Source of the DNA: a virus
Virus record (IMG/VR): IMGVR_UViG_3300020215_000010
Strand: one strand, 5' to 3'
Length of the DNA stretch: 51,608 nucleotides
Shown: piece after piece, positions 5,552-50,840 of the stretch
Layout: every line of letters begins with the position of its first letter
Position numbering within the stretch: position 1 is the stretch's first letter
Position numbers and translations under genes: made by a program
The notes under the pieces: model-generated
Told to the model about the DNA's origin: nothing
Seen by the model: the letters and a program-made list of their open reading frames with translations, nothing else
Database searches by the model: none

Positions 5552-5581
5552 CCCTGACCACCGAGGAGGCAAGGTAGGAAG

Positions 5582-5758: not shown

Positions 5759-5760
5759 CC

Positions 5761-6850: not shown

Positions 6851-6929
6851 TCTACCCCCTCACTTACCAGCCCCAATACGCAACAGGCGAGAGGGTCGGC
6901 AGCAACTACAGGATCGTGGATGCGGAGCA

Positions 6930-33754: not shown

Positions 33755-34041
33755 GATTCGATGCACCACGCCCCGAGGATGTCCTCCTCGTGGCAGATGA
33801 AGCGCTCGACACCGTCGATCTTGATCCAGTCGCCGCTGTTCTTCTTGAACAGCACCTTCTGGCCCTTGAGGCGCTTGATATCGTCATCGGCCGTCTTGCC
33901 GACCGCGATGATGATCCCCTCGGCCGGGGCGTTGCGCTTCTCCGCTGTCTCGGGAATGATCAGGGAGGTGGTCTTCTGGATGGACTCGCGCTCAAGCAGC
34001 ACAAAAGCCCAGAAGGGGTGAAACCCCTGGGTAACGCTCAT
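33751..34041 (-). CDS. GroES-like co-chaperonin
   Basis: LIIPETAEKRNAPAEGIIIAVG...KGQKVLFKK...EEDILG aligns with GroES blocks. Confidence 0.65.
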   Translation of the reverse strand: MSVTQGFHPFWAFVLLERESIQKTTSLIIPETAEKRNAPAEGIIIAVGKTADDDIKRLKGQKVLFKKNSGDWIKIDGVERFICHEEDILGAWCIES

Positions 34042-34115
34042 GACACACTCGTAAGTTGTTGATCCGACGCGCTGATTACCCGTGCGGAAGCGTCGATTTT
34101 CCGCCGGGATTCGGC

Positions 34116-34121
34116 TATAAT
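34116..34121 (+). promoter_or_regulatory. perfect TATAAT -10 box 6 nt upstream of the lipoprotein ATG (leaderless-type promoter)
   Basis: ggcTATAATccgggcATG read directly; the -35 is weak. Confidence 0.45.
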
Positions 34122-34127
34122 CCGGGC

Positions 34128-34700
34128 ATGGCAAAGCGCCTCGGATTAGTCCTGGCTCTGGCAATTTCGCTGGGGGGTTGTGCGGCTTCAGCGCCGCACG
34201 AGATCGACCCGTCGTCTATCAGGCCGCTCGTGGAGTTCGTCGAGCGCGAGACGGGTTACAGGCTCGATCCACTGCCCAGAATCATCGTGGACAGGGAGAG
34301 AATGTCGAAAGACTGGTCAGGTTCGGCCAGTGTGTTTGCTTACGTGCCCCAGGCATCGTTCTCCGCGTTCAGCGGCGAACCGATTGTCTACCTTGACCAC
34401 ACCCGCTATATGCCCGGCACCTCACAATGGAATGCCGCCATCGTCCACGAGCTGGTGCACTACGGCCAGTATCTGACCTACATGGCGGCGGTGCGGGCAG
34501 GACCCGCCGCTGTCACCGAATTACGCAGCCGCAAGGGCTGGGTCTGTACAAGGTCAACAGAGATCGAGGCAACGAACGCCGAGATCCGGTATCTCCGAAA
34601 CCACGATCCCGTTTATGCCCGCCGCATGGAGGCAGTAAATCTTGCCGAGTATTCCGCCTGCGTCAGCGGCTACAAGCCAACGCTATTTGGCCGACCCTAG
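34128..34700 (+). CDS. lipoprotein with HExxH zinc-metallopeptidase motif
   Basis: MAKRLGLVLALAISLGGC lipobox; VHELVHYGQ; opposite strand to the surrounding operon. Confidence 0.6.
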   Translation: MAKRLGLVLALAISLGGCAASAPHEIDPSSIRPLVEFVERETGYRLDPLPRIIVDRERMSKDWSGSASVFAYVPQASFSAFSGEPIVYLDHTRYMPGTSQWNAAIVHELVHYGQYLTYMAAVRAGPAAVTELRSRKGWVCTRSTEIEATNAEIRYLRNHDPVYARRMEAVNLAEYSACVSGYKPTLFGRP

Positions 34701-34708: not shown

Positions 34709-34882
34709 ATGAAACCGTTTTTGGCCGCTATGTTTCTTGTCGCTGCGGCGCTGCCGGCGCTCGCTCAAACCCTGGCTTGCGGGATTCCCCCGCTCGCGCC
34801 GCTCGGCTGCATCACCGGCCGACCCGTCTGTGTGTGTGATGCCGCCGGTAATTGCGGTTGGGTTTTTGTCGGCTGCTTCTAG
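34709..34882 (+). CDS. secreted Cys-rich peptide (57-aa precursor)
   Basis: Signal MKPFLAAMFLVAAALPALA; 6 Cys in the 38-aa mature part; GGGGGCGAA upstream. Confidence 0.5.
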   Translation: MKPFLAAMFLVAAALPALAQTLACGIPPLAPLGCITGRPVCVCDAAGNCGWVFVGCF

Positions 34883-36195
34883 GAGCTGAGTATCGCTTCC
34901 AACAGCGCCCGCGTCTGGTTCGGGGCGGCAATGCCCCGCGAGCCCAGATAGCCGAGTTCCGTACCCAGCAGGTTGGCAAAGTCCGGCATCTGGCCGGCGT
35001 CTGAGATCAGCCCGCGCTGGGTCAGGTTCTTCCAGTAATCGAATGCTTCGTCGGTGGCCCACTTGCCGCCCGTGCCCTGTGTGGCGAAGGTGGCGATCTT
35101 GGCGCGGCGCTGGAGCGGATCGTCGGACTCGAAGTCGAGGAACGACGGCGCATCCATCGCCGCGGGGCGGCTGAGGCTGGTCGGCGCGGCAACATTGCTC
35201 GGCTTAACGAAGGGGGAACCAACGCCGCCCTCGCTGCCGCCAGTATCGCCGCCGGGCGCGGGATCGGCCTTGCCGGTTCGCGCGCTGTCCCGTTCCATTG
35301 TCGCGTCCAGTAGCGAGACAAGTCCGTTGATTGCCGTGCCGGGCCCAAGGCCCAATACAGAGTTGACCACGGCCTGCTGCGACATCATACCGGGGTTTTG
35401 CGGGAAACCCGCCTTCTCGGCGGCTTTCTCCATGACGCTGCGAAACCCGCCGACCGGTGCTTGGCCCGGAGCCTGACCCGAACCGCCGCCGGTTCCGCCA
35501 GTAGCTCCGCCCGGACCCGGGCCGCCGACGCTGCCGGCCTGCCCGCCCTGGTGGCCGGGGGCGCCACCCGGATTGGGACCACCAATTGCGCCTTCGCCAA
35601 ATCCGCCCATGCCGTGAGGATCGCTGACATTGCCGCCGAGCCCTCGCCCGCCGGCACCCGTGTTGCCGCCCTGTGTGCCGGCGCCGTCCGGGCTGTCTTG
35701 GCTGTTGTCGTTGGAGGTGCTGTCCGTTGTGCCGCCGCCGCCCATGCCGCTGGAATCCTGCCCGCCCTGTCCGCCGGGACCACCGGGGCCGTCGCTCCAG
35801 AACTCCAGCAATCCGGTCTGCGGGTTGATCGAGCCGCCGTCCGTGTTCTGGTGAAGCATCTGCGCTTCTTGCGGATTGATGTGCGCCAGCACGGTATCGC
35901 CCATGCGGCCCTGCTGCTGCAGGGCAAACGCCATCCGCTTCAGTTCGTCCTGATACCCGCTGCCCATGCCGGGCATCGGACCCATGCCGGCGGGGTTGCC
36001 TCCCAATGCACGCAGGAAGGCCGCCGCCGTCGCATCGCTGGGCGCGGAACCAACCGCCTGACGCGCCATCTCCGCGCCTCGGCCGCTGACCTTCCCCGCG
36101 TTGGGATCGCGGTACCGGCCCATGCCCATCGTGCGCGCCATCTCCGGGATCATCCGGGAGCGTGACGAGCCGTAATTCGCCGCCTGGGTATGCAT
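34879..36195 (-). CDS. Gly-rich virion-associated protein
   Basis: 438 aa; GDTVLAHINPQEAQML...GSINPQTGLLEF motif, then a low-complexity Gly region of about 150 aa. Confidence 0.55.
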   Translation of the reverse strand: MHTQAANYGSSRSRMIPEMARTMGMGRYRDPNAGKVSGRGAEMARQAVGSAPSDATAAAFLRALGGNPAGMGPMPGMGSGYQDELKRMAFALQQQGRMGDTVLAHINPQEAQMLHQNTDGGSINPQTGLLEFWSDGPGGPGGQGGQDSSGMGGGGTTDSTSNDNSQDSPDGAGTQGGNTGAGGRGLGGNVSDPHGMGGFGEGAIGGPNPGGAPGHQGGQAGSVGGPGPGGATGGTGGGSGQAPGQAPVGGFRSVMEKAAEKAGFPQNPGMMSQQAVVNSVLGLGPGTAINGLVSLLDATMERDSARTGKADPAPGGDTGGSEGGVGSPFVKPSNVAAPTSLSRPAAMDAPSFLDFESDDPLQRRAKIATFATQGTGGKWATDEAFDYWKNLTQRGLISDAGQMPDFANLLGTELGYLGSRGIAAPNQTRALLEAILSS

Positions 36196-36197: not shown

Positions 36198-36404
36198 CTA
36201 TTCGTCCTTCGGTAACTCGTTGCTAAGCTGGAGGGGCAGCTCCCTGAGAAAGTCCGCCACTTCCCGCCATCCCTGGACCTTGCTCAGCCTGTCCTGCGTA
36301 GCTGCCGTCTTCCATGCCTGCTCCGGGAACCTCCGGTCCAGGGCGGCCAGCACCCACCGGGTCGTCGGCTCCTGGAGCCAGTCCTTGAGCGTTTGCCTGT
36401 CCAT
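36198..36404 (-). CDS. hypothetical protein (68 aa) nested over the portal 3' tail
   Basis: GC3 very high in this frame and about half in the portal frame over the same bases. Confidence 0.55.
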   Translation of the reverse strand: MDRQTLKDWLQEPTTRWVLAALDRRFPEQAWKTAATQDRLSKVQGWREVADFLRELPLQLSNELPKDE

Positions 36405-38331
36405 TCATCTGCATCCCTTGGTTCATCACCCCCGACATCATCACCGCATGGGCCTTGACGTGCTCCATCAGCAGCGAGCGGCCGAGCGAGGACAGCGCCG
36501 ATACCGGGTTGTTCAACTCCGCCATGTGAAGTTGGAGGTGCATCTGGTGGTCCTGGTCCGGGAAGGCCATCGGCATCATCGGCGTCTGCTGGAGCGCCAG
36601 TAGATTTTCCATCCCCGGATCGTCGATCCGCATCATCATGGTATTGCCCGGGTTGGGCAGGATTTCGTCGATGTTCTCCGACTGCATCGCTTCCAGGTAA
36701 CGGCGCGAGGCGTTGTAGAGGTGCTGGGGCGAGTTCAGGACCAGCGGGTTGGTTGACAGGAACTGCCACTCCGCATTTGCTTTTGTAAGCCGCTGCTGCT
36801 CCGTCGCCATCTTGGGGTCGGCAACCGGAAGGATCTGAAGGTCGGGCGCGTAGTCCTCTCTCGCGACGGTGAACTGCTTGAGTTCCCCGGCGACATCGAG
36901 GACCGCGAAGTATTCCTTCGGGTCGAGGAATTTGTGGTTGAGGCGGTAGAGCTTTGAAAGCTCGTTCGACCACGCCTCGTTGATCCGCTCGTAGACCGAG
37001 GAGAAGACCTGTAGCGACTGCTCGATAAGAGCCAGCAAGGCGGTAGGCTGAACAACCTTGTCGGTCTGCCCCGTGATCGCCTCGGTTACCGTTGCCAATC
37101 GGTCGGAGCGGGCCGCGAGCAATTCGATGGCCTGGAGCATCGAGACCTGGGGGCCGGGATACTTGGGGACCCAGATGCCCTTTTGCAAATCTTCCACAGA
37201 GCCGGGGACCTTGACGAACTGGCCCAGCTTCATCTGGATTTCCCGGCCTTCGATGCCCCCAAGCTGCTGGGACATGAATCCGGAATTGTTGCCGACATTG
37301 GCCAGCGTGGCCGCGTCGATGAACTGGCGGAGAAGCTTGTTCACGCTCGCGTTGGGCTGGGAGATCAGATGCCCCAGTCCAAGGCCATAGAACCCGTCCG
37401 GGTTCTCCATATAGGGGTAGTGGGTGAAGTACTCGACTGGCTCCTTGTCCGCCGTGGGATTACCCAGCTCATCCGTATCGTAACGGACGACAATGCGGAG
37501 CACCTTCCGGGTCGCGGCGTCAACCGTGACGACGTAGGGCTCCTCTATTCCATCGTCGTCCAGATCGAGCAGCCGGTGCTGCTCCAGCAGGACCACGGGC
37601 TGATAGACGATCATCCCGGGCTCGGTCAGGCCATGCGACTGGTCGTGCGCCCGGTCGATGTTGTTCTTGGCCTCATCCCATACAGCGGGAGTGCCTTCGT
37701 CGATGAAGACGCCCTTCTCCTTGAGGATGCGCGTCTTGTTGACCGACATACGGATGATGTGCGTCTTGCGCTCTATGTCCTCCAATTCACGGGGACCCAC
37801 CCCGTAGGAAACCGTGAGGTCGATGGCGCGGACGTTATCGACGATGTTCCGCTTGCGGGCCGGGCAGTAGTACGACTTGGTGAACACCGAGCCGTGGAGG
37901 GGAACGCCGAGCAGAAGGCGGTCCTTGCCCCGCTTGTAGAGCTTGTCCTTGACGGTGCACTGCCAGGCCATATGCGCGCCCACGCGCTTGGCCCGCTCAA
38001 TCGAATGGGAGTCGTCCTTGCCAACCGGGATGGCCTTGATGAAGTTCCGGCTGGGGAACATGGCCTTGTAGGCTCTGGCTGCAAACTGGGTGCAGCCCTC
38101 GGCCAGCAGCGGTAATGATTCGCTCGAAGAGCCTTCCCACGGGGGGTTCTTCGGCTTGTCGTCCTGGTAATACATCTTGAGCCAGAAAGCGTGCTTCTCG
38201 ATCCATTGCTTTCTTGACTCCTCGTCGTGCCGCCACTCCTCGTAGACCCGGTTGCCGATCTCGGTCAGTTCTTTCTCGTCGAGCTTTGCCGCGATATTCC
38301 GTGTTTCTGGGTGCAGGAATTCGTCGCTCAT
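36223..38331 (-). CDS. portal protein
   Basis: 702 aa; PPWEGSSSESLPLLAEGCTQFAARAYKAMFP resembles the podovirus portal N-region; position upstream of scaffold and capsid. Confidence 0.7.
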   Translation of the reverse strand: MSDEFLHPETRNIAAKLDEKELTEIGNRVYEEWRHDEESRKQWIEKHAFWLKMYYQDDKPKNPPWEGSSSESLPLLAEGCTQFAARAYKAMFPSRNFIKAIPVGKDDSHSIERAKRVGAHMAWQCTVKDKLYKRGKDRLLLGVPLHGSVFTKSYYCPARKRNIVDNVRAIDLTVSYGVGPRELEDIERKTHIIRMSVNKTRILKEKGVFIDEGTPAVWDEAKNNIDRAHDQSHGLTEPGMIVYQPVVLLEQHRLLDLDDDGIEEPYVVTVDAATRKVLRIVVRYDTDELGNPTADKEPVEYFTHYPYMENPDGFYGLGLGHLISQPNASVNKLLRQFIDAATLANVGNNSGFMSQQLGGIEGREIQMKLGQFVKVPGSVEDLQKGIWVPKYPGPQVSMLQAIELLAARSDRLATVTEAITGQTDKVVQPTALLALIEQSLQVFSSVYERINEAWSNELSKLYRLNHKFLDPKEYFAVLDVAGELKQFTVAREDYAPDLQILPVADPKMATEQQRLTKANAEWQFLSTNPLVLNSPQHLYNASRRYLEAMQSENIDEILPNPGNTMMMRIDDPGMENLLALQQTPMMPMAFPDQDHQMHLQLHMAELNNPVSALSSLGRSLLMEHVKAHAVMMSGVMNQGMQMNGQANAQGLAPGADDPVGAGRPGPEVPGAGMEDGSYAGQAEQGPGMAGSGGLSQGAAPPA

Positions 38332-38855
38332 TTACGCGGCTGCGCTAGGTAATGGCGCATGGCTTCGAGCAGATATGTCTGCTTGTCCGTGTACGTCCCG
38401 GACTTGCGCCACTCGTCCCTCTCATCGGGCGCGAGGTAGCCTCTGATGTATGCGTCAAGCCATGACCTATCCATCCAGTCATCGTAGGAACGGGTTTCCT
38501 TGCCGCTGCTGTGAAGCTGGTTGTATTTGCGCCTGTCGAATTCGCGCTGCTCTGGCGTAAGAGAGCCCCGGAACTGTTCTCGAAAATCCCTGAACTTGGG
38601 ATCGACCTGCGGCATGTAGTGCAGCATGTCGCCAAAAACCGCGCGCTGGAGCGCGTCGCCCGTTAGGTTCTTGTCGTAAACTTCGATGGTGGGTCGGCCG
38701 GGGTACGGATTTGTCGGCTCGTCCGGGTTGAAAAATTCAAGGCTGCCGCCGTATTGCGACACATCACCGCGACGAGCGGCCCAGTTATGCCCAGAGAGGG
38801 CGGGGTACTGGTTCAGAATATTCGAGATGACTGGGGCGAACTCGTCCTCAGACAA
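38328..38855 (-). CDS. hypothetical protein upstream of portal
   Basis: 175-aa ORF, ATGA-coupled. Confidence 0.5.
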   Translation of the reverse strand: MSEDEFAPVISNILNQYPALSGHNWAARRGDVSQYGGSLEFFNPDEPTNPYPGRPTIEVYDKNLTGDALQRAVFGDMLHYMPQVDPKFRDFREQFRGSLTPEQREFDRRKYNQLHSSGKETRSYDDWMDRSWLDAYIRGYLAPDERDEWRKSGTYTDKQTYLLEAMRHYLAQPRK

Positions 38856-40401
38856 CTACGTCGCTCATCTCGGCGCGTCTGCGAACACGGGAATTCCAGA
38901 TATGCGGCACCATGCCGGGGCCGTACATCTCGACATCGATCATATAAGGCATGTCGAGGACCCGGGCGATGTCCTGGCACTGGGCGATCTTTTCATGGTC
39001 GGTGACGAATTCCTTGCCGTCGATGGTGACCTTGACGAATTTCGGCTGGCCGCGCTTGTCGAGCGTCGAGAAGTCGATCTTGTCCGTGTCGGGATAGGAG
39101 CAGTCGTAGCCGTAGCCCTTGAACTTCCTGAAGCCGATGGCGTGCAGGATCGAGATGCCGCGCATGGCCGCCGAGCAGCCGCCGGGAATGAGAAAATGCC
39201 CCTCGCCCAATCGCTGGGCGACGACATCCTGCTCTCCCGCTCCGACCTGGGCATGGTAGCCATAGACCCTCGCTTTCTTCTCGATGAGGCGGTCAATCGT
39301 GGTTGGATGGACCATTGAGGCGACGAGGTAGCGCACCTCGGGATGGGGGTTCTCGATAAAGTCCTGGACGTGCGAGCGGGGATCGAGGAGCACGCAGGCC
39401 CACGGGATTATTCCCTGGGCAATCAGGTCGTCATGCGCCGACTTGACGCAGACGACGTAGTGGTTGGGCTTCTGCTGAAGCTCCTTGATGGTCTCGTAGT
39501 AGTCCTTGAGGCTGGGGCCGCCGGAGCAGAACACGGCGATGCCGTCGTGAATCTTGCACTCGACCAGCCAGTCCTTGAGCAACGTGGCCGAATAATGGAC
39601 GTTGGCCCGGATGTTGACCTCGGGGACGCAGTTCTTGGTCTTGACCATGATCTCCATCCCTCCAGCGGAGGTATGGGCGATGGCCCCGATGCCCTTCATG
39701 CCGTCGGGGCGCTTCTGCTTCATCTTCTTCTTGGCGACCGGCCCCTTGTCGTGGCGCATCCTTGTGCCGAGGATGGACTGGTTGAATACCTCCAGCCCGG
39801 ATAGGTCGGCGCTGATGTTGTGCCACCAGCCTTCACGAAGCTGGTCGAACACGTAGGAGTCGTGCCACTCCTTCATGTTGAAGATTTCGCCCGTGACATA
39901 GGCGTTCCTGAACTTCGCCAGGAACTCGTCCGCCCGGTATTGAGTATTGAACCCGACGAAGCCGCACTCCGAATGCGGCCAGTCCTTGCGACCGAGGTAG
40001 GAGCCCGCGAATCCCTCGGGGCAGACCGCTTCGACGAATTCCTCGTCCACCTTGGCGTGGGTCTCTATGTCGGCATCGAGCCAGATCCACCACTGAGCCG
40101 CTTTGCTGGCGATCCGCTTGGGATCGGTCAGGGCAAAGACCTTGTGGCTGAAGCGCACGGCCTGGAAGCGGTAGTCCGACGAGGTGTCGAACTTCTCGTC
40201 CATGAACTTCTGCCGGTCCGCGTCCTGGTCGAGATCGACATAGGTAATGCGCGGGGACTGGATATCCGGCTTCGTCCCCTCGTAGTAGACCCACAGGGGG
40301 ATCGAGACGGGCCAGTGCTTCAAGTAGGATTCGATGAAGCGTCTGCCGTAAAGCCCGTAGTGCTTCCGGCCGAACGTGGTGACGCAGGCAAAGCGTGTCA
40401 T
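38848..40401 (-). CDS. two-domain glycosyltransferase: GT-A-like N-domain plus MptE/Maf (DUF115)-like C-domain
   Basis: WLDADIE (DxD); AVFCSGGPSLKD, VVCVKSAHDDLIAQGIIPWACVLLDPR, GGCSAAMRGISILHAIGF..GYGYDCSY. Confidence 0.6.
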   Translation of the reverse strand: MTRFACVTTFGRKHYGLYGRRFIESYLKHWPVSIPLWVYYEGTKPDIQSPRITYVDLDQDADRQKFMDEKFDTSSDYRFQAVRFSHKVFALTDPKRIASKAAQWWIWLDADIETHAKVDEEFVEAVCPEGFAGSYLGRKDWPHSECGFVGFNTQYRADEFLAKFRNAYVTGEIFNMKEWHDSYVFDQLREGWWHNISADLSGLEVFNQSILGTRMRHDKGPVAKKKMKQKRPDGMKGIGAIAHTSAGGMEIMVKTKNCVPEVNIRANVHYSATLLKDWLVECKIHDGIAVFCSGGPSLKDYYETIKELQQKPNHYVVCVKSAHDDLIAQGIIPWACVLLDPRSHVQDFIENPHPEVRYLVASMVHPTTIDRLIEKKARVYGYHAQVGAGEQDVVAQRLGEGHFLIPGGCSAAMRGISILHAIGFRKFKGYGYDCSYPDTDKIDFSTLDKRGQPKFVKVTIDGKEFVTDHEKIAQCQDIARVLDMPYMIDVEMYGPGMVPHIWNSRVRRRAEMSDVVV

Positions 40402-41852
40402 TTCAGCCCAAATAGTGGGGAGTCAACCTCCCCGATGATGTTGATGTATTTCCGGTAGCCATCGCCCTTCAGTCGAGGAGCGACCCCGTGCACCGAGTCC
40501 GGCGTGTTGAGGAAGAACAGAACGGTTCCGGGAAGGCACTCAATCGTCTCGACGATCTCGACGCTTCCGGGCTCCGCTTCCGCTTTCTTGACCATGCCCT
40601 CGCGGCCGACAAACGAGCGCGGACCCTTCCAGCGATAGATTTCAAGCTCGCCGCCGCCGAGATAAACCAGGCCCGCATAAAGTTCCTTCGGGTCATCGAT
40701 GTGGGGTCCTCTCACCGATGAGGTTTCCTCGACCGGTGTATTCACCGCGAACTGGCAGTCGAGGCGGAACGGTTGCTTATCCCTGCCCCTAACCCCGGCG
40801 GTGAGCGGGAGGGACCCCAGTTGCGGATAGAGACGACGGATCTCGGGGGCGAAGATGAGGAACAGCTCGTTGAGGAACTGCTCCCCGGTGTGAAGCTCGA
40901 AAAACTCGCGCCAGAAGGCGGAGGTGGATTCGTCGCCGAGGACTTCGCGGGCCGAGCGCTGGTAGAGGGTGTTCTGTTTTGCCGGTCGGCCGAGGATGAT
41001 GTCCGCAGGATCGGGGAAATTCTTTTCAAGCTGTTCCAGGTAAACCGGGTCAAGCCGGCCAGCAATGTAAGGGAATGGCTTGACACGGTCCCTCCTTTCA
41101 ACAAGGGCGCCAAGAACGGATTTCAGCCGAACGCCTGGGTTATGCCGTAGCGGTTCAGCAGGTTTTGCTCCCACGTCAGCCGGGGCGTGGTGGCGGTACT
41201 TGCCCTGGACCGGGACCTTGAATCCTTCGTCGCTCGTTTTTCTGAGGGCGCAGACGAGCATGATGTTCTTGTCGGTCGGTTCCGGTCTTTTGATCTCTTT
41301 CGGGTCGATGTTTTCGATGAGGACATTGCCATCCCGATCCCCGGCGTACATCTCAAGGATTTCGTAGCCGTTGGCGTGAGCAAGATCGAAGAACAGGACG
41401 GGGTTGAAGTTGTAGAAACCGTGGTTCCGCCAGTTGATCCACGGCAGCACGTGCAGGATCACCCCCCTTCGTTTGCAGAGGTTGTGACAGGTCTCGAAGA
41501 TGGCCGCCTGGTTGAAGATGTGCTCGCCGGTTCCGTTGTTGGTGACGAGGTCGGCCGGCTCTAGATGCGGGTACGGTGTCGTCGCAGCGCTGGTGGCAAT
41601 TTCGATCTCCTTCGGGATACTGATAACCGTTCGATTCAAATCGAGGCTAACCGTCCCCTTCCCGTCGAAGTCGATGGACTCGTAGCGGGTAAACCCGAGG
41701 AAATCGTAGTAGTCGGGCACGTCCTTGAACGTGCGGTCCTTCAACTGGAAGGTCAGGGTCTGCGAGCCAAGCTCGATCACCGAGAGGTCCTGGCCCTCGA
41801 TGTGCTGGCGGACTTTCATCACCGCCTTGCCGGCCATCGGATTGAATGTCAT
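40398..41852 (-). CDS. class-I SAM methyltransferase fused to a P4H-like 2OG-Fe(II) oxygenase
   Basis: VIELGSQ, ADLVTNNGTGEHIFNQ...GVILHVLP; C-domain PHIDDP (HxD), YAGLVYLGGGELEIY, DSVHGV. Confidence 0.55.
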   Translation of the reverse strand: MTFNPMAGKAVMKVRQHIEGQDLSVIELGSQTLTFQLKDRTFKDVPDYYDFLGFTRYESIDFDGKGTVSLDLNRTVISIPKEIEIATSAATTPYPHLEPADLVTNNGTGEHIFNQAAIFETCHNLCKRRGVILHVLPWINWRNHGFYNFNPVLFFDLAHANGYEILEMYAGDRDGNVLIENIDPKEIKRPEPTDKNIMLVCALRKTSDEGFKVPVQGKYRHHAPADVGAKPAEPLRHNPGVRLKSVLGALVERRDRVKPFPYIAGRLDPVYLEQLEKNFPDPADIILGRPAKQNTLYQRSAREVLGDESTSAFWREFFELHTGEQFLNELFLIFAPEIRRLYPQLGSLPLTAGVRGRDKQPFRLDCQFAVNTPVEETSSVRGPHIDDPKELYAGLVYLGGGELEIYRWKGPRSFVGREGMVKKAEAEPGSVEIVETIECLPGTVLFFLNTPDSVHGVAPRLKGDGYRKYINIIGEVDSPLFGLK

Positions 41853-42457
41853 TCAAACACCATCACGCAGTCGCGGTTCACCTTGTCGGCGCGTCTCCAG
41901 CCCCAGGACTGGAGGATCAGCACGCCATCGTTGACGTTCGTCGCGTTCTCCTCGATCAGGATCACGGGGCGGTGCTTCAGCAATGTCTGCCGTCCGCCCT
42001 CAAGTACGTGTTCCTCGAAGCCCTGAACGTCGATCTTCACGAAGTCCGGGGCGAGGTCGTAGGTGTCGAGTGGCATGACGGGGACTAACTCGACGTTGTC
42101 GTATTTCATTTCTTTCGTTTCCCAAGCGCCGGAGTTTTCCGCCTTGGGCGTGTCCAGTGCTCCCCAGCACTGCCGTGAGCCGAGCGCGACGTTGTGCAGG
42201 ACGGCGTTATCCGGCCGGTTCTTCTTCAGGCAGGCGAAGTTCTCGGGTTGAGGCTCAAAAGCCACCACCTTCTCGAATCTCTTGCCCAGCGCGCGGGTGA
42301 AGAACCCGACATGCGCGCCGATGTCGATGGCTAGCCCGAAGCGCTTGACGTGCCTTAGAGCCGCTTCAAGCTGTTTAGACTGATAGGTGCCGGCGAGGGC
42401 GAAGGGGGCGAAGTGCGTGTCATCGTCGGGAAGCCAGAACTGGCCGGCCTGTTTCAC
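41849..42457 (-). CDS. FkbM-family methyltransferase
   Basis: AIDIGAHVGFFT and FVKIDVQGFEEHVLEG. Confidence 0.65.
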   Translation of the reverse strand: MKQAGQFWLPDDDTHFAPFALAGTYQSKQLEAALRHVKRFGLAIDIGAHVGFFTRALGKRFEKVVAFEPQPENFACLKKNRPDNAVLHNVALGSRQCWGALDTPKAENSGAWETKEMKYDNVELVPVMPLDTYDLAPDFVKIDVQGFEEHVLEGGRQTLLKHRPVILIEENATNVNDGVLILQSWGWRRADKVNRDCVMVFE

Positions 42458-43212
42458 GCGCTTTCCTTCAGCCTGTCCCAGATTGAGGGTCTGGGGTTTC
42501 TCATCCGGGAGCGTTCAAGCTCCCACAGCCCGCCGTGCTCGATAAACCACGGGGCCTTTTCCGAGTAGTGGACCGCCTTGGGTGTTACATCCGGTGACAC
42601 ACCCTGTATCCAGTTCCACTCGGGAGGTAGCTCTCCGATATCCTCGTCCTTCAGCCAGGAGAAGGAATGCAACCACGAGCCGGGTTTGTGGTTCACCACG
42701 TCAACCGTCAGATCGGCGTTGAGCGGGTGCTGGAGGTTGAACAGCACGAGGCTCGACCAGTTTTTGCGGTGGTATGAAGTCTGGGCTACCCCGTCCATCT
42801 TTACAGAGTCAGTAGGGGTGTGACGGTGCTTGACACACATCACCGCAAATCTTTCGTCCGCGAGAGCGAACAATTCCTTGATATTGGCCTGAAACAGAAA
42901 GTCGCAGTCCATGAACGCCGCCCATTTGGCAGAGGGCACGTCGCGCTTCGCCAGCAGGTAAGTCAGCCAGCGAGAATGGGAGAACTCGGTCGAGAATGGC
43001 TTTCCATCACGCTCGTCAACGTATTGACCTGTCTCCCCAACTCTCCAGGGTCGGTCGAACAGGCCCTCCGCTCTCAAGGTGCGGTGCTTCAGGGGCCGGA
43101 TATAGGTTGAGGCTTTGGTGCGGTCGATGATCGAGAAGCGGCAGACCTCGTAGGCGTCCTGTTCGCGACTGTCCCACCCGATATAGATCGGCAAGACCTC
43201 AGAATCGGTCAT
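42454..43212 (-). CDS. GT8-like (GT-A fold) glycosyltransferase
   Basis: PIYIGWDSRE start, FMDCDFLF DxD, KNWSSLVLFN. Confidence 0.55.
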   Translation of the reverse strand: MTDSEVLPIYIGWDSREQDAYEVCRFSIIDRTKASTYIRPLKHRTLRAEGLFDRPWRVGETGQYVDERDGKPFSTEFSHSRWLTYLLAKRDVPSAKWAAFMDCDFLFQANIKELFALADERFAVMCVKHRHTPTDSVKMDGVAQTSYHRKNWSSLVLFNLQHPLNADLTVDVVNHKPGSWLHSFSWLKDEDIGELPPEWNWIQGVSPDVTPKAVHYSEKAPWFIEHGGLWELERSRMRNPRPSIWDRLKESA

Positions 43213-43957
43213 TCAGTATTCTCCACGCCGTCCCGTTCCTCATCTCATCGAGGCGAAACTGGTGATAAGCGAGCGCGTGGCACCAGCGCTCGCGCGGCGG
43301 CCACCAGGGTTTTTCGATGTCCTCGAACACCCACGAAACCGTCTCGCACGCCGACTCGCCCAGCACCACGGCCGGAACCCCCGCCAGCAGCGCATCGACG
43401 GCGCTGTTCGATGAATGCGTGACGACGCACCAGCAATCGCGCAACGCGTCCGAAATCTCCCCCTCTCCCTTGGGCTTGACCACGATAGGCCGGGAGGTGT
43501 TGCGGCTAATCTCCGTCGTCACTGTCCGCAACCACTGATCCGCATTGATGCCGTAGAACCCGGCGATAGCCCCGGTCAACGGGATGACCAGCACGTGCCG
43601 GCCGTCCTTGCGCCACGGGCTCAAGCCGAGGTTCAGGTCTTTCCAGCGGTTCTCGGGGTAGACGTATTCCCCCTGGTCAGGGAGGTCGGCCTGCCGGCCG
43701 TTCTTCGTCACCCGGTAGAAGCCTTCATAATGTCCGGGCTTGAAATACCCGTGGTCGATGTAGAAGAAATCCCGCTGCACCCACTCGCATTGCTTCAGGA
43801 TTTCCCCCGTTCCCCGCAGGATGCCGTACATGGCGGCGGGTCCCTCTAGGAGCTGCGTAGGAGGGACGATCCTGCCCTTACACCCTTCGGCAAACGCACT
43901 CATGATCACCTTGGAGTGCTGGTGGTCGGTGGTGTAGCAGCAGGGTTGGCTAGTCAT
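43199..43957 (-). CDS. GT-B-like / capsule-synthesis-like glycosyltransferase
   Basis: HVLVIPLTG...VVTHSSNSAVDALLAGVPAVVLGES Rossmann-type C-terminal block; ATG 43957. Confidence 0.45.
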   Translation of the reverse strand: MTSQPCCYTTDHQHSKVIMSAFAEGCKGRIVPPTQLLEGPAAMYGILRGTGEILKQCEWVQRDFFYIDHGYFKPGHYEGFYRVTKNGRQADLPDQGEYVYPENRWKDLNLGLSPWRKDGRHVLVIPLTGAIAGFYGINADQWLRTVTTEISRNTSRPIVVKPKGEGEISDALRDCWCVVTHSSNSAVDALLAGVPAVVLGESACETVSWVFEDIEKPWWPPRERWCHALAYHQFRLDEMRNGTAWRILNDRF

Positions 43958-44150
43958 GCAACACCGGGATATCGAACTCCACTCGCGGCCATAGCGTGAA
44001 CGAACGGCCGTCGCCATCCGGCGTGGCGAAGTATTCCAGTGCCAGGCGTTGCGCTTCCCATTCGTGCGGCGCGGCGACGACGTAGGAGACGCGCTTTCTG
44101 GTCCCCGTCCCGGAGACAAAGGTGACGGGGCAGCGCCAGGCGGTTGTCAT
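43950..44150 (-). CDS. hypothetical protein (66 aa)
   Basis: ATGA overlap with the terL stop. Confidence 0.45.
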   Translation of the reverse strand: MTTAWRCPVTFVSGTGTRKRVSYVVAAPHEWEAQRLALEYFATPDGDGRSFTLWPRVEFDIPVLHD

Positions 44151-45649
44151 GACAGGGCGTAGGGGTCCTCGGTCTTCCCCCTGGCGCGCTTCATGTCTTC
44201 ATGGTTCTCGGCAAGCCAGCGGTCTTCTTCGGTCGTCACGAAAGGCCTCGATCTCAAGGCATAGGCCACTTCGTCATAAACGTGATTCTCATCCGAGGGC
44301 TTATCCCCCGGCCCCTTCTCGCCATCGATCTCGTCGAGCAATAGGGTGGGGCAGGTTCTCCAGAACTGGGTACAATCAGCCGTGACAAAGAACATCGGGT
44401 CGTTGAAGGATTCGCCTGTTTCGAGATAGCGGTCGTTGCCCGCTAACCTTGAGATCACCTCGTTGTAGTTCCGCTTGCGGTCCTTCTTGGCTTTTCGCAT
44501 CACCAGGCGCGGATCGGTCTGGAACAGGGTTTCTGCGACACATGTACCCCCCCGGTCGGCCCACATCTCCGTGTCCCCGACCCGGTAGTCCATGCGCTCG
44601 CCCATGCGCTCCAGCTCACGCTTGATGATGCCCTTCCCCACTTCCTGGGGACTCAGCCTCAAGCCTTCGTTCGGCCGGCCGTTCCAGCCGTACCATTCGG
44701 CGTAGCGGATCAGGGCTCCGGCCGGTAACCAGCGGCTCGGCCAATTTCCTTTTGCCGCAAGCTCAACCCCCTCGCTGACGCAGTACCAGCCAATCGAGAA
44801 GGGGCGGACGACGCCCCAGTCGATGACCATGAAGCGTGTCCAGTGCTTCGGAGGGGTAAAAGCCCTCAACATATGCCTGTCGCGGGACAGGTTGAACAAA
44901 GCCTGCCCAACCACCGCGTCCCAGTCGCCCTCTCGTAGCTGCTTCGCCAATTCCGGCGGCAACCCCGAGAACTGACCGGCATACCCCTTATCCAGATAAC
45001 TGTTGTCCTGCATCCGGGCGGGGATATAGACCGTCGCCCAACCCTTCGATTCAGGATCCGAGGGGTCCGACATCGTCTTGTCCCAGAACAGCGTCTCCGC
45101 CGGGGCAGGGTCGATCATGGTTTTTTTCAGGAACGAATGACCGGGGCCGCCGGGGTTCGAGCACAGCACCACTCTTGGCAGCAGATGCTTGCAGGCTTCC
45201 GCGGGTTTGTATCTTCCCAACCGGACGCGGGTTCTCAGATAGTTGATCTGGAACGCCGTTAAGTGTGCCGCCTCATCGATCCCGAGCCAGTGAATCTCGG
45301 CGCCTTGGTACCGGGTGACATCGTCCTCTTTTTCGCAGTACGCGAGGTTGATCCCGGCCCCGTTGTAGAACTCGAACCGCTTCTTGGTGTCGTTGTAGGA
45401 CCCCAATTCAGTGGGGATCTCCGCCTTGATCTTGCGGATGTGGTTCGCCTCGAGCTCCGGCAGGGTCCGCCTGAATATGAACGCATCCAGCCCGGGGTTG
45501 CTGAGGCAGAAGCCTATCGCGTCCCACCTCAGGCTGTGCGACTTCCCGCCTCCCGCAGCACCCCCATAGAAAATCTGCCGGGCCAGGGACGCGTGTAGCA
45601 GCCTCTGCCGGCTCTGCGGCTCATAGTCGAGCCGTATCGTTTGCTGCAA
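44147..45649 (-). CDS. terL: terminase large subunit
   Basis: Walker A GGAAGGGKS, IDEAAH Walker B-like; 500 aa; TTG start per track. Confidence 0.85.
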   Translation of the reverse strand: MQQTIRLDYEPQSRQRLLHASLARQIFYGGAAGGGKSHSLRWDAIGFCLSNPGLDAFIFRRTLPELEANHIRKIKAEIPTELGSYNDTKKRFEFYNGAGINLAYCEKEDDVTRYQGAEIHWLGIDEAAHLTAFQINYLRTRVRLGRYKPAEACKHLLPRVVLCSNPGGPGHSFLKKTMIDPAPAETLFWDKTMSDPSDPESKGWATVYIPARMQDNSYLDKGYAGQFSGLPPELAKQLREGDWDAVVGQALFNLSRDRHMLRAFTPPKHWTRFMVIDWGVVRPFSIGWYCVSEGVELAAKGNWPSRWLPAGALIRYAEWYGWNGRPNEGLRLSPQEVGKGIIKRELERMGERMDYRVGDTEMWADRGGTCVAETLFQTDPRLVMRKAKKDRKRNYNEVISRLAGNDRYLETGESFNDPMFFVTADCTQFWRTCPTLLLDEIDGEKGPGDKPSDENHVYDEVAYALRSRPFVTTEEDRWLAENHEDMKRARGKTEDPYALS

Positions 45650-46308: not shown

Positions 46309-46505
46309 TGGCTCTGCCCCTCAGAGCCGCACATCGGGCATGGCGTGACTGGTACCCAGCAGTTATCGGCCGCGTTTAGCCAGTGCGGTCCCTTGTCGGT
46401 GACGATAACCACCAGGCCGTTCCATTCCGTGACGCGGCTTATGTGGCCATCGAACACGGGGCCGACTTGCGACATGCCGCTGCGCCTCTGGGGCTCGTCG
46501 GTCAT
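46305..46505 (-). CDS. hypothetical protein with C-terminal CPMCG
   Basis: 66-aa ORF, ATGA-coupled to terS. Confidence 0.5.
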   Translation of the reverse strand: MTDEPQRRSGMSQVGPVFDGHISRVTEWNGLVVIVTDKGPHWLNAADNCWVPVTPCPMCGSEGQSQ

Positions 46506-50788: not shown

Positions 50789-50840
50789 TGTCTCAGTCCA
50801 ATTCGAGTCGCGCGCTAATGATGATTCTAACCCGCGCCGT

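What the first reader, a model, noticed from the sequence alone, without database searches (positions are those of the whole stretch)
38848..40401. Maf/MptE (DUF115)-like domain, known from flagellin nonulosonic-acid glycosylation, encoded by a phage
The C-terminal half shows the characteristic blocks FCSGGPSLKD, VVCVKSAHDDLIAQGIIPWACVLLDPR and GGCSAA...GYGYDCSY. The N-half carries a DxD-type WLDADIE motif. Maf-type enzymes are implicated in attaching pseudaminic or legionaminic acids to Ser/Thr of flagellins. A phage copy could put a host-like nonulosonic-acid coat on the virion, or it could interfere with host flagellin glycosylation.
Basis: partly seen in the sequence, partly recalled or inferred. 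Interest (0 to 1): 0.65.

Follow-up and report, generated by a model that had tools for sequence, protein, structure and literature searches.

The report
Phage two-domain Maf-like glycosyltransferase
A temperate phage carries, between its terminase and portal genes, a fused enzyme with one ordinary sugar-transferase domain and one domain of the type bacteria use to put sialic-acid-like sugars on flagellin; it belongs to a sugar-adding gene set kept throughout an uncultured phage group, most likely to decorate the virus particle.

Summary
ORF 38848-40401 (-) encodes a 517-aa protein, and all quoted motifs are present. Residues 287-438 match Pfam PF01973 (MptE-like/MAF_flag10/DUF115) at E=3.4e-16, 59.9 bits against a cutoff of 34.6.

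The protein is not a classical Maf. A confident AlphaFold model shows two domains:
- **N-terminal domain:** retaining-type GT-A fold with an invariant DxD.
- **C-terminal domain:** best PDB match is the Magnetospirillum Maf structure 5MU5. D340 and D433 align with the two acidic residues essential in Maf.

The Maf flagellin-binding parts are absent. No flagellar or nonulosonic-acid synthesis genes occur in the window or in related loci.

The gene is translationally coupled inside a late-operon cassette: TerL, GT-B-like, GT8-like, FkbM methyltransferase, methyltransferase-dioxygenase fusion, this protein, portal. Every sampled relative with a portal at least about 40% identical has the Maf-like gene next to the portal; more distant relatives lack the cassette. 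All the enzymes are predicted soluble.

Best reading, inferred and not shown: cytoplasmic glycosylation of a virion protein. The Maf-like domain would add an acidic ulosonic sugar, possibly Kdo, and the GT-A domain a hexose. The acceptor, the donor and the host are unknown. I rate it a new variant of a known kind.

The parts
38848..40401 (-). Whole gene: 517-aa soluble two-domain glycosyltransferase (GT-A domain, disordered linker, Maf-like domain).
   Evidence: ORF and translation. Coding signature. AlphaFold2 model with pLDDT 89.4 and two domains joined by a disordered stretch at aa 229-249. No membrane segment. ATGA start/stop overlap with the upstream gene.
39718..40401 (-). N-terminal domain, aa 1-228: retaining-type GT-A fold with the DxD motif D109/D111 (nt 40069-40077).
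   Evidence: Foldseek matches to GT6 enzymes (alpha-1,3-GalT, GTA/GTB, BoGT6a) and GT8 enzymes (LARGE1, GlyE) at E about 1e-6 to 1e-7. D109 and D111 are invariant in 51 homologues. No Pfam family is matched. In some relatives this domain is a separate ORF just upstream of the Maf-like gene.
38851..39654 (-). C-terminal domain, aa 250-517: Maf / MAF_flag10 / PF01973 domain (Pfam match aa 287-438, nt 39088-39543). It contains the SGGPS motif (nt 39511-39525), LLD340PR (nt 39376-39390) and GYD433 (nt 39103-39105).
   Evidence: Pfam E=3.4e-16. Top PDB structural match is 5MU5 Maf at E=3.3e-8. hhalign to 5MU5 residues 273-418 gives probability 90.8%, E=1.2e-6. D340 aligns with E324 and D433 with D415, the residues reported as critical in Maf (bioRxiv 10.1101/2020.06.03.131540). 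D340 is invariant and D433 at least 90% conserved.
40398..41852 (-). Upstream neighbour, 484 aa: class I SAM methyltransferase fused to a 2-oxoglutarate/Fe(II) dioxygenase (H384-x-D386...H455...R467). Accessory cassette member, seen only in closer relatives.
   Evidence: Weak Pfam 2OG-FeII_Oxy_3 hit. Conserved iron-binding triad. Methyltransferase hit to 3cc8. AF2 model with pLDDT 89.3. Foldseek top hits are PasI and PolD, which act on octosyl-acid sugar nucleosides, followed by sugar-tailoring and prolyl hydroxylases; no TET/JBP. Found in 8 of 40 loci.
41849..42457 (-). FkbM-family methyltransferase, 202 aa. Accessory cassette member.
   Evidence: Pfam PF05050 E=7.6e-17. TIGR01444 E=5.7e-26. 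phrog_8156. Found in 9 of 40 loci.
42454..43212 (-). GT8-like retaining glycosyltransferase, 252 aa, with DxD at D102/D104. Core cassette member.
   Evidence: Profile hits to the WbbM GT8 domain (E=3.7e-4), GlyE, glycogenin and AgtA. Invariant D102, D104 and H215. phrog_28018 E=5e-59. Present in 35 of 40 loci.
43199..43957 (-). Small GT-B-like protein, 252 aa. The ORF list extends it to 44119, but homologues and the public gene call start at 43957. Core cassette member of unresolved activity.
   Evidence: Weak hits to DUF6716 putative glycosyltransferase and TIGR04396. Weak MGD1 C-terminal-domain match. Public gene call of 252 aa. Homologues are about 250 aa, and some carry PF20471. Present in 37 of 40 loci.
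44147..45649 (-). Terminase large subunit: upstream boundary of the cassette.
   Evidence: Pfam Terminase_6N. Synteny in the related loci.
36223..38331 (-). SU10-type portal protein: downstream boundary of the cassette.
   Evidence: Pfam PF23899 and phrog_1216. ATGA overlap with the preceding ORF.
38328..38855 (-). 175-aa ORF of unknown function between the Maf-like gene and the portal, overlapping both. It is absent from the relative whose Maf-like protein is 84% identical (L001).
   Evidence: ORF. Overlaps. Indel relative to L001. A 175-aa gene sits at the same position in another contig. No family hit.

Best explanation
The gene encodes a soluble, bifunctional glycosyltransferase. Its C-terminal Maf-type domain most likely transfers an acidic 2-keto-3-deoxy (ulosonic) sugar from a CMP-activated donor taken from the host pool. 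The donor could be Kdo, which every Gram-negative host makes, or a nonulosonic acid if the host makes one. Its N-terminal retaining GT-A domain most likely adds a hexose-type sugar from an NDP-sugar, using the DxD-bound metal.

The enzyme works with the co-transcribed GT-B-like and GT8-like transferases. In this phage it also works with two methyltransferases and a 2OG dioxygenase that would tailor the product. The set is expressed late, with the terminase, portal and capsid genes. It acts in the cytoplasm on a soluble acceptor, most likely Ser/Thr of a virion protein, so that particles leave the cell carrying a short, partly methylated, acidic O-glycan.

Shown: the domain identities, conservation of the Maf-critical acidic residues and the DxD, the operon position, conservation across the clade, and the absence of membrane or export components.

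Inferred: that the domains are active, the kind of donor, the order of additions, the late timing, and above all that the acceptor is a virion protein.
For: Domain identity:
- PF01973 at E=3.4e-16, above the cutoff.
- The best NCBIfam hit is the Maf-family PseD model.
- The AF2 model has pLDDT 89.4.
- Foldseek's top PDB hit is Maf 5MU5 for the C-domain, and GT6/GT8 retaining GT-A enzymes for the N-domain.

Active site:
- D340 (invariant) and D433 (at least 90% conserved) align with E324 and D415 of 5MU5.
- Those two residues are reported as essential for Maf activity (10.1101/2020.06.03.131540).
- The DxD at D109/D111 is invariant.

Functional link between the two domains:
- In some relatives the GT-A domain is a separate ORF immediately upstream of a methyltransferase-Maf fusion.

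Context:
- ATGA overlaps run from the upstream gene through to the portal.
- There is no convincing internal terminator. A strong one follows the capsid gene.
- The order TerL, GT-B-like, GT8-like, variable genes, Maf-like, portal holds in 40 loci. GT-B-like is present in 37 and GT8-like in 35.
- Maf-like identity co-varies with TerL (rho 0.88), capsid (0.72) and portal (0.63).
- All sampled relatives with at least about 40% portal identity carry the gene next to the portal. Thirty-five more distant loci and two complete relatives lack the cassette.
- Variable cassette genes in relatives are nucleotide-sugar enzymes and methyltransferases.
- No enzyme in the cassettes has a membrane segment.

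Precedents:
- Maf enzymes O-glycosylate Ser/Thr directly and accept CMP-Kdo and CMP-Neu5Ac (10.1101/2020.06.03.131540).
- Mycobacteriophage capsids are glycosylated by phage-encoded transferases (as summarised in PMC11256854).
- Chlorovirus A064R is a GT-GT-methyltransferase fusion that builds capsid glycans (PMC7826918).
Against: - No acceptor has been identified. The major capsid protein has no Ser/Thr-rich extension compared with a cassette-less relative.
- No donor is defined. Neither this phage nor its relatives encode a CMP-ulosonic-acid pathway.
- The accessory genes in relatives point to mannose, heptose or 6-deoxyhexose chemistry rather than ulosonic acids.
- Late expression is inferred from gene arrangement only.
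- The phage is uncultured and its host is unknown.
- GT8, GT9-like and Kdo-transferase-like enzymes are also the enzyme types used in LPS core synthesis, so a cell-envelope target is not excluded.
- Conservation within one clade is effectively a single evolutionary event.
Confidence: 0.45

Rival explanations
1. The cassette remodels a host envelope glycan (LPS core, O-antigen or capsule) rather than the virion. This could serve superinfection exclusion, prevent progeny from sticking to debris, or act as lysogenic conversion by this temperate phage. The Maf-like domain would act as a Kdo or nonulosonic-acid transferase onto a glycan acceptor.
For: - The phage is temperate, with an integrase, ERF, YqaJ and SSB.
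- GT8 enzymes, a GT9-like heptosyltransferase in relatives, and Kdo-type transfer are typical of LPS-core synthesis.
- A Maf-like protein is the predicted alpha-Kdo transferase of the E. coli K15 capsule (PMC7387560).
- Peripheral cytoplasmic transferases need no membrane segment.
Against: - The genes are translationally coupled between terminase and portal, with no promoter or terminator of their own.
- They are not near the integrase at 13460-14641.
- No flippase, polymerase, initiating phosphoglycosyl transferase or Gtr-type membrane protein occurs in any of 40 cassettes.
- The cassette is inherited along with the virion genes. Conversion modules are usually swapped between related phages.
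- Late expression would leave little time for export to the outer membrane.
Confidence: 0.2
2. This is the first reader's second idea: the enzyme acts on host flagellin, or another host surface protein such as pilin. It would either hijack or block host flagellin glycosylation.
For: All biochemically characterised PF01973 glycosyltransferases act on flagellin. The catalytic residues are conserved.
Against: - There is no Maf N-terminal region, no TPR or helical flagellin-binding domain, and no GlfM-like partner. Flagellin-binding modules of these kinds were required for activity in the Shewanella Mafs tested (10.1101/2023.12.03.569772).
- The PseD model is matched only in its central part, far below cutoff.
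- No flagellar gene is linked in the window or in 40 related loci.
- The domain is fused or adjacent to other sugar-building enzymes, which a blocker would not need.
Confidence: 0.05
3. The cassette glycosylates phage DNA (hypermodified bases) to evade restriction. The 2OG dioxygenase would create a hydroxylated base and the transferases would add sugars.
For: Phages are known to combine TET-type dioxygenases, methyltransferases and glycosyltransferases for DNA hypermodification (own knowledge). The window cassette holds a methyltransferase-dioxygenase fusion.
Against: - The dioxygenase's structural neighbours are sugar-nucleoside and sugar-tailoring oxygenases and prolyl hydroxylases, not TET/JBP.
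- It is an accessory gene, present in only 8 of 40 loci.
- No hydroxymethylase, DNA kinase or base-modifying enzyme was detected among the window ORFs scanned.
- The location is in the morphogenesis operon, not the replication module.
- No Maf-type or GT6/GT8-type enzyme is known to act on DNA (own knowledge).
Confidence: 0.05
4. The PF01973 domain is not a glycosyltransferase here. It would be a nucleotide-dependent kinase or pyrophosphokinase like the archaeal MptE that names the Pfam family, or an inactive binding module. The cassette would then make a soluble small molecule.
For: PF01973 is named after a pterin pyrophosphokinase. The donor has not been tested. The sequence link to the sialyltransferase CstII is not significant.
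Against: - The nearest annotated and structural relatives are Maf proteins.
- Both acidic residues essential for Maf glycosyl transfer are kept.
- Fusion partners across the family are GT-A domains and methyltransferases.
- No pterin or folate genes are nearby.
Confidence: 0.05

Closest known systems
Maf (motility-associated factor) flagellin nonulosonic-acid glycosyltransferases, e.g. Magnetospirillum magneticum Maf (PDB 5MU5), Clostridium botulinum and Geobacillus Maf, Shewanella Maf-1/Maf-2
   Same: Same central MAF_flag10/PF01973 domain. Best structural match. Both acidic residues critical for activity are aligned and conserved. Cytoplasmic and soluble.
   Different: No Maf N-terminal region and no flagellin-binding C-terminal or TPR domain. 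A GT-A glycosyltransferase domain is fused in front instead. Not linked to flagellin or Pse/Leg/Neu genes. Sits between terminase and portal of a phage. Far below the NCBIfam PseD cutoff.
Predicted alpha-Kdo transferase (ORF4) of the E. coli K15 capsule locus, a Maf-like fold outside flagella (PMC7387560)
   Same: A Maf-like domain working with a separate hexosaminyl transferase to build a sugar/ulosonic-acid structure. This shows the fold is not restricted to flagellin and that Kdo is a plausible donor.
   Different: That protein acts in a capsule export locus on a lipid-linked polymer. The phage cassette has no export or membrane components. No direct sequence comparison was made here.
Chlorovirus PBCV-1 multidomain capsid-glycan enzymes A064R (GT-GT-methyltransferase) and A111/114R (PMC7826918)
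   Same: Virus-encoded, cytoplasmic, multidomain fusions of glycosyltransferase and methyltransferase modules that build the glycan of a virion protein. The phage family likewise occurs as GT-A/Maf, methyltransferase/Maf and longer fusions.
   Different: Eukaryotic giant virus. Different transferase families and N-linked glycans. The function there is shown experimentally, whereas here it is inferred.
Mycobacteriophage virion glycosylation (Che8-type; Freeman et al. 2023, as cited in PMC11256854)
   Same: Phage-encoded glycosyltransferases, with methyltransferases in some phages, that put glycans on virion proteins.
   Different: Actinobacterial siphoviruses with ordinary GT families and no Maf-type domain. 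In at least one such phage (Maravista) the transferase genes lie near the 3' end of the genome rather than between terminase and portal. Glycosylation there was shown by mass spectrometry.
Auto-annotated 'MptE-like' proteins of uncultured Caudovirales phages in UniProt (e.g. A0A6J5PVH5, A0A6J5L5C1, A0A6J7XC21, A0A0F7L3H2)
   Same: Predicted structures match this protein at E from 1e-8 to 1e-37, and some also carry methyltransferase domains. Phage PF01973 proteins are therefore already in databases.
   Different: They carry only automatic names. No paper in the searchable library discusses them. The conserved position and the GT-A fusion had not been described there.

Membership tests
Pfam PF01973 (MptE-like / MAF_flag10 / DUF115) | Score above the curated gathering cutoff of the family HMM. 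| tested here: met
   59.9 bits against a cutoff of 34.6, E=3.4e-16, profile positions 26-170 of 171. Ten more distant relatives from the C-domain search also pass.
Maf flagellin nonulosonic-acid glycosyltransferases | Central domain with the fold of the Maf structure 5MU5. | tested here: met
   Foldseek top PDB hit is 5MU5, E=3.3e-8, 292 aligned columns. hhalign probability 90.8%.
Maf flagellin nonulosonic-acid glycosyltransferases | Acidic residues equivalent to E324 and D415 of M. magneticum Maf, which are required for activity. | tested here: met
   D340 aligns with E324 and D433 with D415 in two alignments. D340 is invariant and D433 at least 90% conserved. The residue roles come from 10.1101/2020.06.03.131540.
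Maf flagellin nonulosonic-acid glycosyltransferases | Conserved active-site serine (S334 in CbMaf, S356 in GkMaf), 23 residues before the second acidic residue. | tested here: inconclusive
   S410 lies 23 residues before D433. The family consensus has Ser at 409 and Ala at 410. Equivalence cannot be fixed without a structural superposition.
Maf flagellin nonulosonic-acid glycosyltransferases | Full-length architecture: Maf N-terminal region plus an acceptor-binding C-terminal or TPR domain, or a GlfM partner. | tested here: not met
   The N-terminus is a GT-A domain. The PseD model is matched only at positions 215-320 of 640, at 22.6 bits against a cutoff of 670. No TPR was detected.
Maf flagellin nonulosonic-acid glycosyltransferases | Genomic linkage to flagellin and to Pse/Leg/Neu biosynthesis genes. 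| tested here: not met
   The window ORFs scanned show only phage functions. Cassette genes of 40 related loci include no NeuB/PseI-type synthase or CMP-nonulosonic acid synthetase.
Maf flagellin nonulosonic-acid glycosyltransferases | Transfer of a CMP-activated ulosonic acid to Ser/Thr of a protein. | not testable with these tools
   Needs enzyme assays or mass spectrometry.
CAZy GT42 sialyltransferases (CstII-like) | Detectable sequence-profile similarity to CstII. | tested here: not met
   hhalign of the C-domain profile against the CstII sequence (checked against PDB 2WQQ) gives probability 0.9% over one 17-residue motif. The Maf-CstII structural resemblance is reported only in the literature.
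Retaining GT-A glycosyltransferases (GT6/GT8-like) - N-terminal domain | GT-A fold with a conserved metal-binding DxD. | tested here: met
   Foldseek hits to alpha-1,3-GalT, GTA/GTB, BoGT6a, LARGE1 and GlyE. D109 and D111 are invariant.
Retaining GT-A glycosyltransferases (GT6/GT8-like) - N-terminal domain | Match to a curated family model. | tested here: not met
   No Pfam, NCBIfam or PHROG family covers aa 1-230. No PDB sequence hit with the profile.
Archaeal MptE 6-hydroxymethylpterin pyrophosphokinase | Context of pterin/folate biosynthesis and a stand-alone small protein. | tested here: not met
   The domain is fused to a glycosyltransferase and surrounded by sugar-modifying genes. The nearest named model is Maf-type PseD.
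Virus-encoded virion glycosylation systems (mycobacteriophage Che8 type, chlorovirus A064R type) | Glycosyltransferase genes carried by the virus and expressed with virion genes. | tested here: met
   Overlapping reading frames run from the cassette into the portal gene, and no internal terminator is present. The position is conserved in 40 loci. Expression timing itself was not measured.
Virus-encoded virion glycosylation systems (mycobacteriophage Che8 type, chlorovirus A064R type) | A glycan covalently attached to a virion protein. | not testable with these tools
   Needs purified particles and mass spectrometry. There is no cultured member of the clade.
Lysogenic-conversion O-antigen modification modules (Gtr-type and similar) | Membrane transferase or flippase components, a position near the attachment site, and independent expression. 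| tested here: not met
   No membrane enzymes. About 24 kb from the integrase. No promoter or terminator of its own.

The most novel reading that the evidence does not exclude
A whole clade of uncultured temperate podovirus-like phages has retargeted a Maf-type protein O-glycosyltransferase from flagellin to its own virion. It would use the host's CMP-Kdo or CMP-nonulosonic-acid pool to prime Ser/Thr on a head- or portal-proximal protein, perhaps the Gly/Ser/Thr-rich protein encoded just after the portal. The fused GT-A domain and the two partner transferases would then extend the glycan. These would be the first phage particles known to carry a sialic-acid-like coat, made by a vertically inherited morphogenesis module.
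Probability: 0.2. Interest if true: 0.8.

Novelty: new variant of a known kind. Interest (0 to 1): 0.55.

Why it matters
Bacteriophage particles were long assumed to be unglycosylated, and the few proven exceptions use ordinary sugar transferases. This case is different in three ways:
- A transferase domain otherwise characterised only on bacterial flagellin, and predicted in one capsule locus, is fused to a second transferase.
- The fusion is fixed in the head-assembly operon.
- It is kept across a diverse phage lineage that is known only from metagenomes.

If the product is an acidic, sialic-acid-like glycan on the virion, it would bear on several questions: how phages shield or disguise their particles, how they adsorb, and how stable they are. 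It would also widen the known acceptor range of Maf enzymes, which are being developed for protein glyco-engineering. Even on the less novel reading, envelope remodelling, it is a compact, soluble two-step enzyme whose catalytic residues are already mapped and ready for mutagenesis.

Tried and rejected
- **Cultured relatives.** Megablast of the 10-kb region against 50,697 phage records found nothing. tblastn of the protein found only two records, both matching the N-domain alone. No cultured relative carries the C-domain at that sensitivity.
- **PDB by sequence.** phmmer found no hit. The family profile gave only 5MU5 at E=0.18.
- **Sequence link to CstII (GT42).** Not significant.
- **PHROGs.** No family for the target.
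- **Host identification.** One MAG contig in GTDB genomes, which is the same contig as an IMG/VR viral contig. No tRNA genes. No source names in the cluster look-up. A GcrA gene in a close relative is not present in the window. The host remains unknown.
- **Acceptor search.** The capsid protein shows no Ser/Thr-rich extension. The 'extra ORF after the portal' correlates with the cassette, at 35/38 loci against 8/35. These ORFs are not one family, however, and the contrast is essentially one phylogenetic split. I keep it as a lead only.
- **GT-B-like neighbour.** Profile-to-PDB and homologue searches did not resolve its activity.
- **DNA-modification reading of the dioxygenase.** Structural neighbours are sugar and protein hydroxylases, not TET/JBP.
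- **Nonulosonic-acid pathway genes.** None found in the window or in the cassettes of relatives.
- **Literature.** No paper on phage DUF115/MptE-like proteins. Freeman et al. 2023 is not held in the library. The Tannerella NulO transferase paper gave nothing indicating a Maf-type enzyme.


Full report
**1. The observation**

The minus-strand ORF 38848-40401 is real. It is a 517-aa ATG-started frame with GC3 of 0.86 and GC2 of 0.38, typical of genes in this 62% GC window. Its start overlaps the stop of the upstream gene (ATGA). Its stop overlaps the start of the next ORF.

Residues 287-438 match Pfam PF01973 (MptE-like, formerly DUF115/MAF_flag10) at E=3.4e-16, 59.9 bits against a gathering score of 34.6, covering nearly the whole profile.

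**2. What the protein is**

A database search found 646 homologues. Nearly all of the 120 listed are 500-600 aa and carry PF01973. They lie on contigs that top out at 40-52 kb, which is phage-sized.

An alignment of 51 of them (A1) shows these conserved residues:
- N-terminal half: D109 and D111 invariant.
- C-terminal half: S293, G295, K320, D340-P-R342, H344, E390, G407-G408 and R414 invariant; P296 and D433 in at least 90% of sequences.

The AlphaFold2 model built on this alignment is confident (mean pLDDT 89.4). It shows two globular domains, aa 1-228 and 250-517, joined by a disordered lysine-rich linker.

Against the PDB, the best match overall is the Maf glycosyltransferase of Magnetospirillum magneticum (5MU5, E=3.3e-8), which aligns with the C-domain. 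All other top matches are retaining GT-A enzymes that align with the N-domain. These are family GT6 (alpha-1,3-galactosyltransferase, blood-group GTA/GTB, BoGT6a) and family GT8 (the LARGE1 xylosyltransferase domain, GlyE). The best NCBIfam model is the Maf-family flagellin modification protein PseD, but only its central 106 positions match, at 22.6 bits against a cutoff of 670.

A profile-sequence comparison with 5MU5 residues 273-418 gives 90.8% probability. In that alignment, and in an independent HMMER alignment, D340 pairs with E324 and D433 with D415. [quoted passage not shown] It also reports that mutating the equivalent residues abolishes flagellin glycosylation by the Clostridium and Geobacillus enzymes (bioRxiv 10.1101/2020.06.03.131540). 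A third catalytic serine could not be placed with confidence.

I could not show a sequence link to the GT42 sialyltransferase CstII (probability 0.9%). The Maf-CstII resemblance rests on the literature.

The protein is therefore a fusion of a DxD GT-A transferase and a probably active Maf-type transferase. It lacks the N-terminal region and the acceptor-binding C-terminal or TPR domain that full-length Mafs have. Flagellin-binding modules of these kinds were required for activity in the Shewanella Mafs tested (bioRxiv 10.1101/2023.12.03.569772).

**3. The surroundings**

The window is a temperate tailed phage, with these identifiable genes:

| Function | Coordinates |
|---|---|
| Integrase | 13460-14641 |
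| ERF recombinase | 6684-7778 |
| YqaJ exonuclease | 7775-8509 |
| SSB | 8512-8967 |
| Small terminase candidate (weak hits only) | 46502-47182 |
| Large terminase | 44147-45649 |
| SU10-type portal | 36223-38331 |
| GroES | 33751-34164 |
| Major capsid protein | 30987-31883 |
| SU10-type adaptor | 28214-28900 |

Identical or near-identical contigs of about 51.6-52.7 kb occur in several samples.

Between terminase and portal lie these genes, in order:
- a 66-aa ORF;
- a 252-aa GT-B-like protein (43199-43957);
- a 252-aa GT8-like transferase with an invariant DxD (42454-43212);
- an FkbM methyltransferase (41849-42457);
- a 484-aa fusion of a SAM methyltransferase and a 2OG/Fe(II) dioxygenase (40398-41852);
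- the target gene;
- a 175-aa ORF of unknown function.

Start and stop codons overlap throughout. The pattern scan found no convincing terminator inside the block, and a strong one follows the capsid gene. None of these proteins has a membrane-spanning segment.

The dioxygenase model (pLDDT 89.3) most resembles PasI and PolD. These enzymes act on eight-carbon octosyl-acid sugar nucleosides. Next come sugar-tailoring oxygenases and prolyl hydroxylases. No TET/JBP enzyme appears.

No flagellar gene and no Pse/Leg/Neu or Kdo pathway gene was detected among the window ORFs scanned, which include nearly all ORFs over 200 aa.

**4. Relatives**

Seventy-one IMG/VR loci and a few others encode relatives. 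In all 40 loci that include both terminase and portal, the order is terminase, GT-B-like, GT8-like, variable genes, Maf-like, portal. GT-B-like is present in 37 and GT8-like in 35.

The variable genes are:
- SDR sugar epimerase/dehydratases (12 loci);
- a small HIGH-type nucleotidyltransferase (12 loci);
- a cupin related to the mannose-6-phosphate isomerase C-terminus (11 loci);
- several methyltransferases;
- radical-SAM/SPASM proteins;
- a GT9-like protein;
- a phosphomannomutase-type HAD protein.

These are nucleotide-sugar and glycan-tailoring functions. None is a nonulosonic-acid synthase or a CMP-sugar synthetase, and none of the enzymes is a membrane protein.

In several loci the GT-A domain is a separate 246-290-aa ORF immediately upstream of a methyltransferase-Maf fusion. 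An exhaustive search with the C-domain alone found 1,745 representative clusters. The domain is C-terminal in nearly all of the 150 listed, behind varied N-terminal modules, often Methyltransf_24. The two domains are thus functionally linked, and the Maf-like module behaves as one unit of a glycan-building toolkit.

Identity of the Maf-like protein to the window's copy rises and falls with that of the terminase (rho 0.88), capsid (0.72), portal (0.63) and GT-B-like protein (0.85). This fits long vertical association with the virion module. The loci are not independent samples, however, and the GT8-like gene does not follow the same ranking.

A second scan seeded with portal sequences shows a sharp boundary. 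Every sampled locus with a portal about 40% or more identical to the window's, and enough upstream sequence to judge, has the Maf-like gene beside it. Thirty-five unique loci with portals at 37% or less have none of the three core genes. The closest cultured relative is Alcaligenes phage vB_Af_QDWS535. Another complete relative is the metagenomic genome MW202796. Both go straight from terminase to portal to GroES.

**5. How it most likely works**

Established:
- a two-domain transferase with conserved catalytic residues;
- a place in a soluble, multi-enzyme sugar cassette;
- translational coupling to the head-assembly genes;
- conservation across a clade.

Inferred: late, cytoplasmic assembly of an O-linked glycan on a virion protein.

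The only domain in the core set whose characterised relatives attach sugar directly to protein Ser/Thr is the Maf-type domain. It is therefore a reasonable candidate for the priming step. It could equally add an ulosonic acid onto a sugar, as predicted for the Maf-like Kdo transferase of the E. coli K15 capsule (PMC7387560).

Characterised Mafs use CMP-activated ulosonic acids and are promiscuous, accepting CMP-Kdo and CMP-Neu5Ac. The phage encodes no donor pathway, so it must draw on the host pool. CMP-Kdo would be available in any Gram-negative host (own knowledge). A nonulosonic acid is possible only if the host makes one.

The GT-A domain, the GT8-like enzyme and the GT-B-like enzyme would add further sugars. 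The methyltransferases and the dioxygenase would tailor them.

Precedents exist. Mycobacteriophage capsids are glycosylated by phage transferases (Freeman et al. 2023, as summarised in PMC11256854). Chlorovirus A064R is a GT-GT-methyltransferase fusion that extends the capsid glycan (PMC7826918).

I give this explanation about 0.45. The acceptor is unknown. The capsid protein shows no obvious acceptor extension. The Gly/Ser/Thr-rich protein after the portal is only a lead.

**6. Rivals**

- **Envelope-glycan remodelling (0.2).** This is the main alternative, because GT8, GT9-like and Kdo-type enzymes are LPS-core-like and the phage is temperate. Against it: the position and coupling within the morphogenesis operon, the lack of any export component, and vertical inheritance.
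- **Action on host flagellin (0.05).** Unsupported for lack of binding modules and linkage.
- **DNA glycosylation (0.05).** Disfavoured by the dioxygenase's structural neighbours, its accessory status and the absence of base-modifying genes.
- **A non-transferase MptE-like role (0.05).** Disfavoured by the conserved Maf catalytic residues and the fusion partners.

**7. Comparison and novelty**

The protein is a member of Pfam PF01973 and works like a Maf in its C-domain. It fails the membership tests for a flagellin Maf on architecture, gene linkage and curated model cutoff.

Phage proteins with this domain already exist in UniProt under automatic 'MptE-like' names. The mere presence of the domain in phages is therefore not new, although no paper in the searchable library discusses it.

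The new points are:
- the GT-A/Maf fusion;
- its fixed place between terminase and portal;
- its partnership with two other transferases;
- its clade-defining distribution.

I rate it a new variant of a known kind, namely virus-encoded glycosylation machinery built from a bacterial protein-glycosylation domain.

**8. Verdict**

Interest is 0.55. A specialist in phage structure or bacterial glycobiology would find a conserved Maf-type module in a head-assembly operon unexpected, and the enzyme is immediately testable by heterologous expression. The function, acceptor, donor and host all remain inferred or unknown.

Noticed in passing
window 34879-36195 (-): A 438-aa protein directly after the portal has a long Gly/Ser/Thr/Asn-rich low-complexity middle and an N-terminal motif GDTVLAHINPQEAQML...NPQTGLLEF. 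An extra ORF of at least 120 aa at this position is found in 35 of 38 cassette-bearing loci but only 8 of 35 cassette-less relatives (G+S+T at least 25% in 14 against 2). The ORFs are not all homologous. It is a possible glycan acceptor, but unproven.
   Followed up: partly
window 40398-41852 (-): A fusion of a class I SAM methyltransferase and a 2OG/Fe(II) dioxygenase. The dioxygenase's closest solved structures are PasI and PolD, which cleave or modify eight-carbon octosyl-acid sugar nucleosides. About 281-aa relatives of the methyltransferase half occur on large cellular contigs, including marine samples.
   Followed up: partly
window 38328-38855 (-): A 175-aa ORF with no family match is wedged between the Maf-like gene and the portal, overlapping both. 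It is absent from the relative whose Maf-like protein is 84% identical (L001), but a 175-aa gene sits at the same spot in a 44%-identical relative. Whether it is an acceptor-specificity factor like GlfM was not tested.
   Followed up: no
window 33751-34164 (-): A GroES/Cpn10 co-chaperonin gene sits inside the head module between portal and capsid genes. The same arrangement is seen in related loci, in the Alcaligenes phage vB_Af_QDWS535, in MW202796 and in pelagiphage HTVC027P.
   Followed up: partly
L004/L063, L041, L059, L033 (related loci): In these relatives the GT-A domain is a separate ORF and the Maf-like domain is fused to a Methyltransf_24 methyltransferase instead. Longer relatives of about 620-920 aa add further N-terminal regions ahead of the methyltransferase-Maf unit.
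   Followed up: partly
L077 (MW202713.1, podovirus genome from Manatee Spring), locus 2165-6581: A stand-alone homologue of the N-terminal GT-A domain lies in an unannotated gap. Its neighbours are genes annotated as a TibC-type (heptosyl) glycosyltransferase, a methyltransferase and a PLP-dependent enzyme, just upstream of the large terminase. This is a second, different sugar cassette next to packaging genes.
   Followed up: no
L081 (Pelagibacter phage HTVC027P), locus 549-4680: Two large hypothetical proteins (483 and 892 aa) occupy the terminase-portal interval in this distant relative, which has the same portal type. Their nature was not examined.
   Followed up: no
window 17751-18131 (-) and 14676-15143 (+), 50450-50872 (-): A DUF1937 / nucleoside 2-deoxyribosyltransferase-like protein, and two T5orf172/MUG113 (GIY-YIG-like) domain proteins, elsewhere in the phage.
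   Followed up: no
window 38001-44000: The cassette region has slightly lower GC (0.59-0.60) than the flanking structural genes (0.62-0.65). This would fit an old acquisition that is largely ameliorated.
   Followed up: no
window 43199-44119 (-): The mechanical ORF list extends the GT-B-like gene to a TTG at 44119 (306 aa). Homologues and the public gene call indicate a 252-aa protein starting at 43957, preceded by a separate 66-aa ORF (43950-44150) that overlaps the terminase stop.
   Followed up: yes
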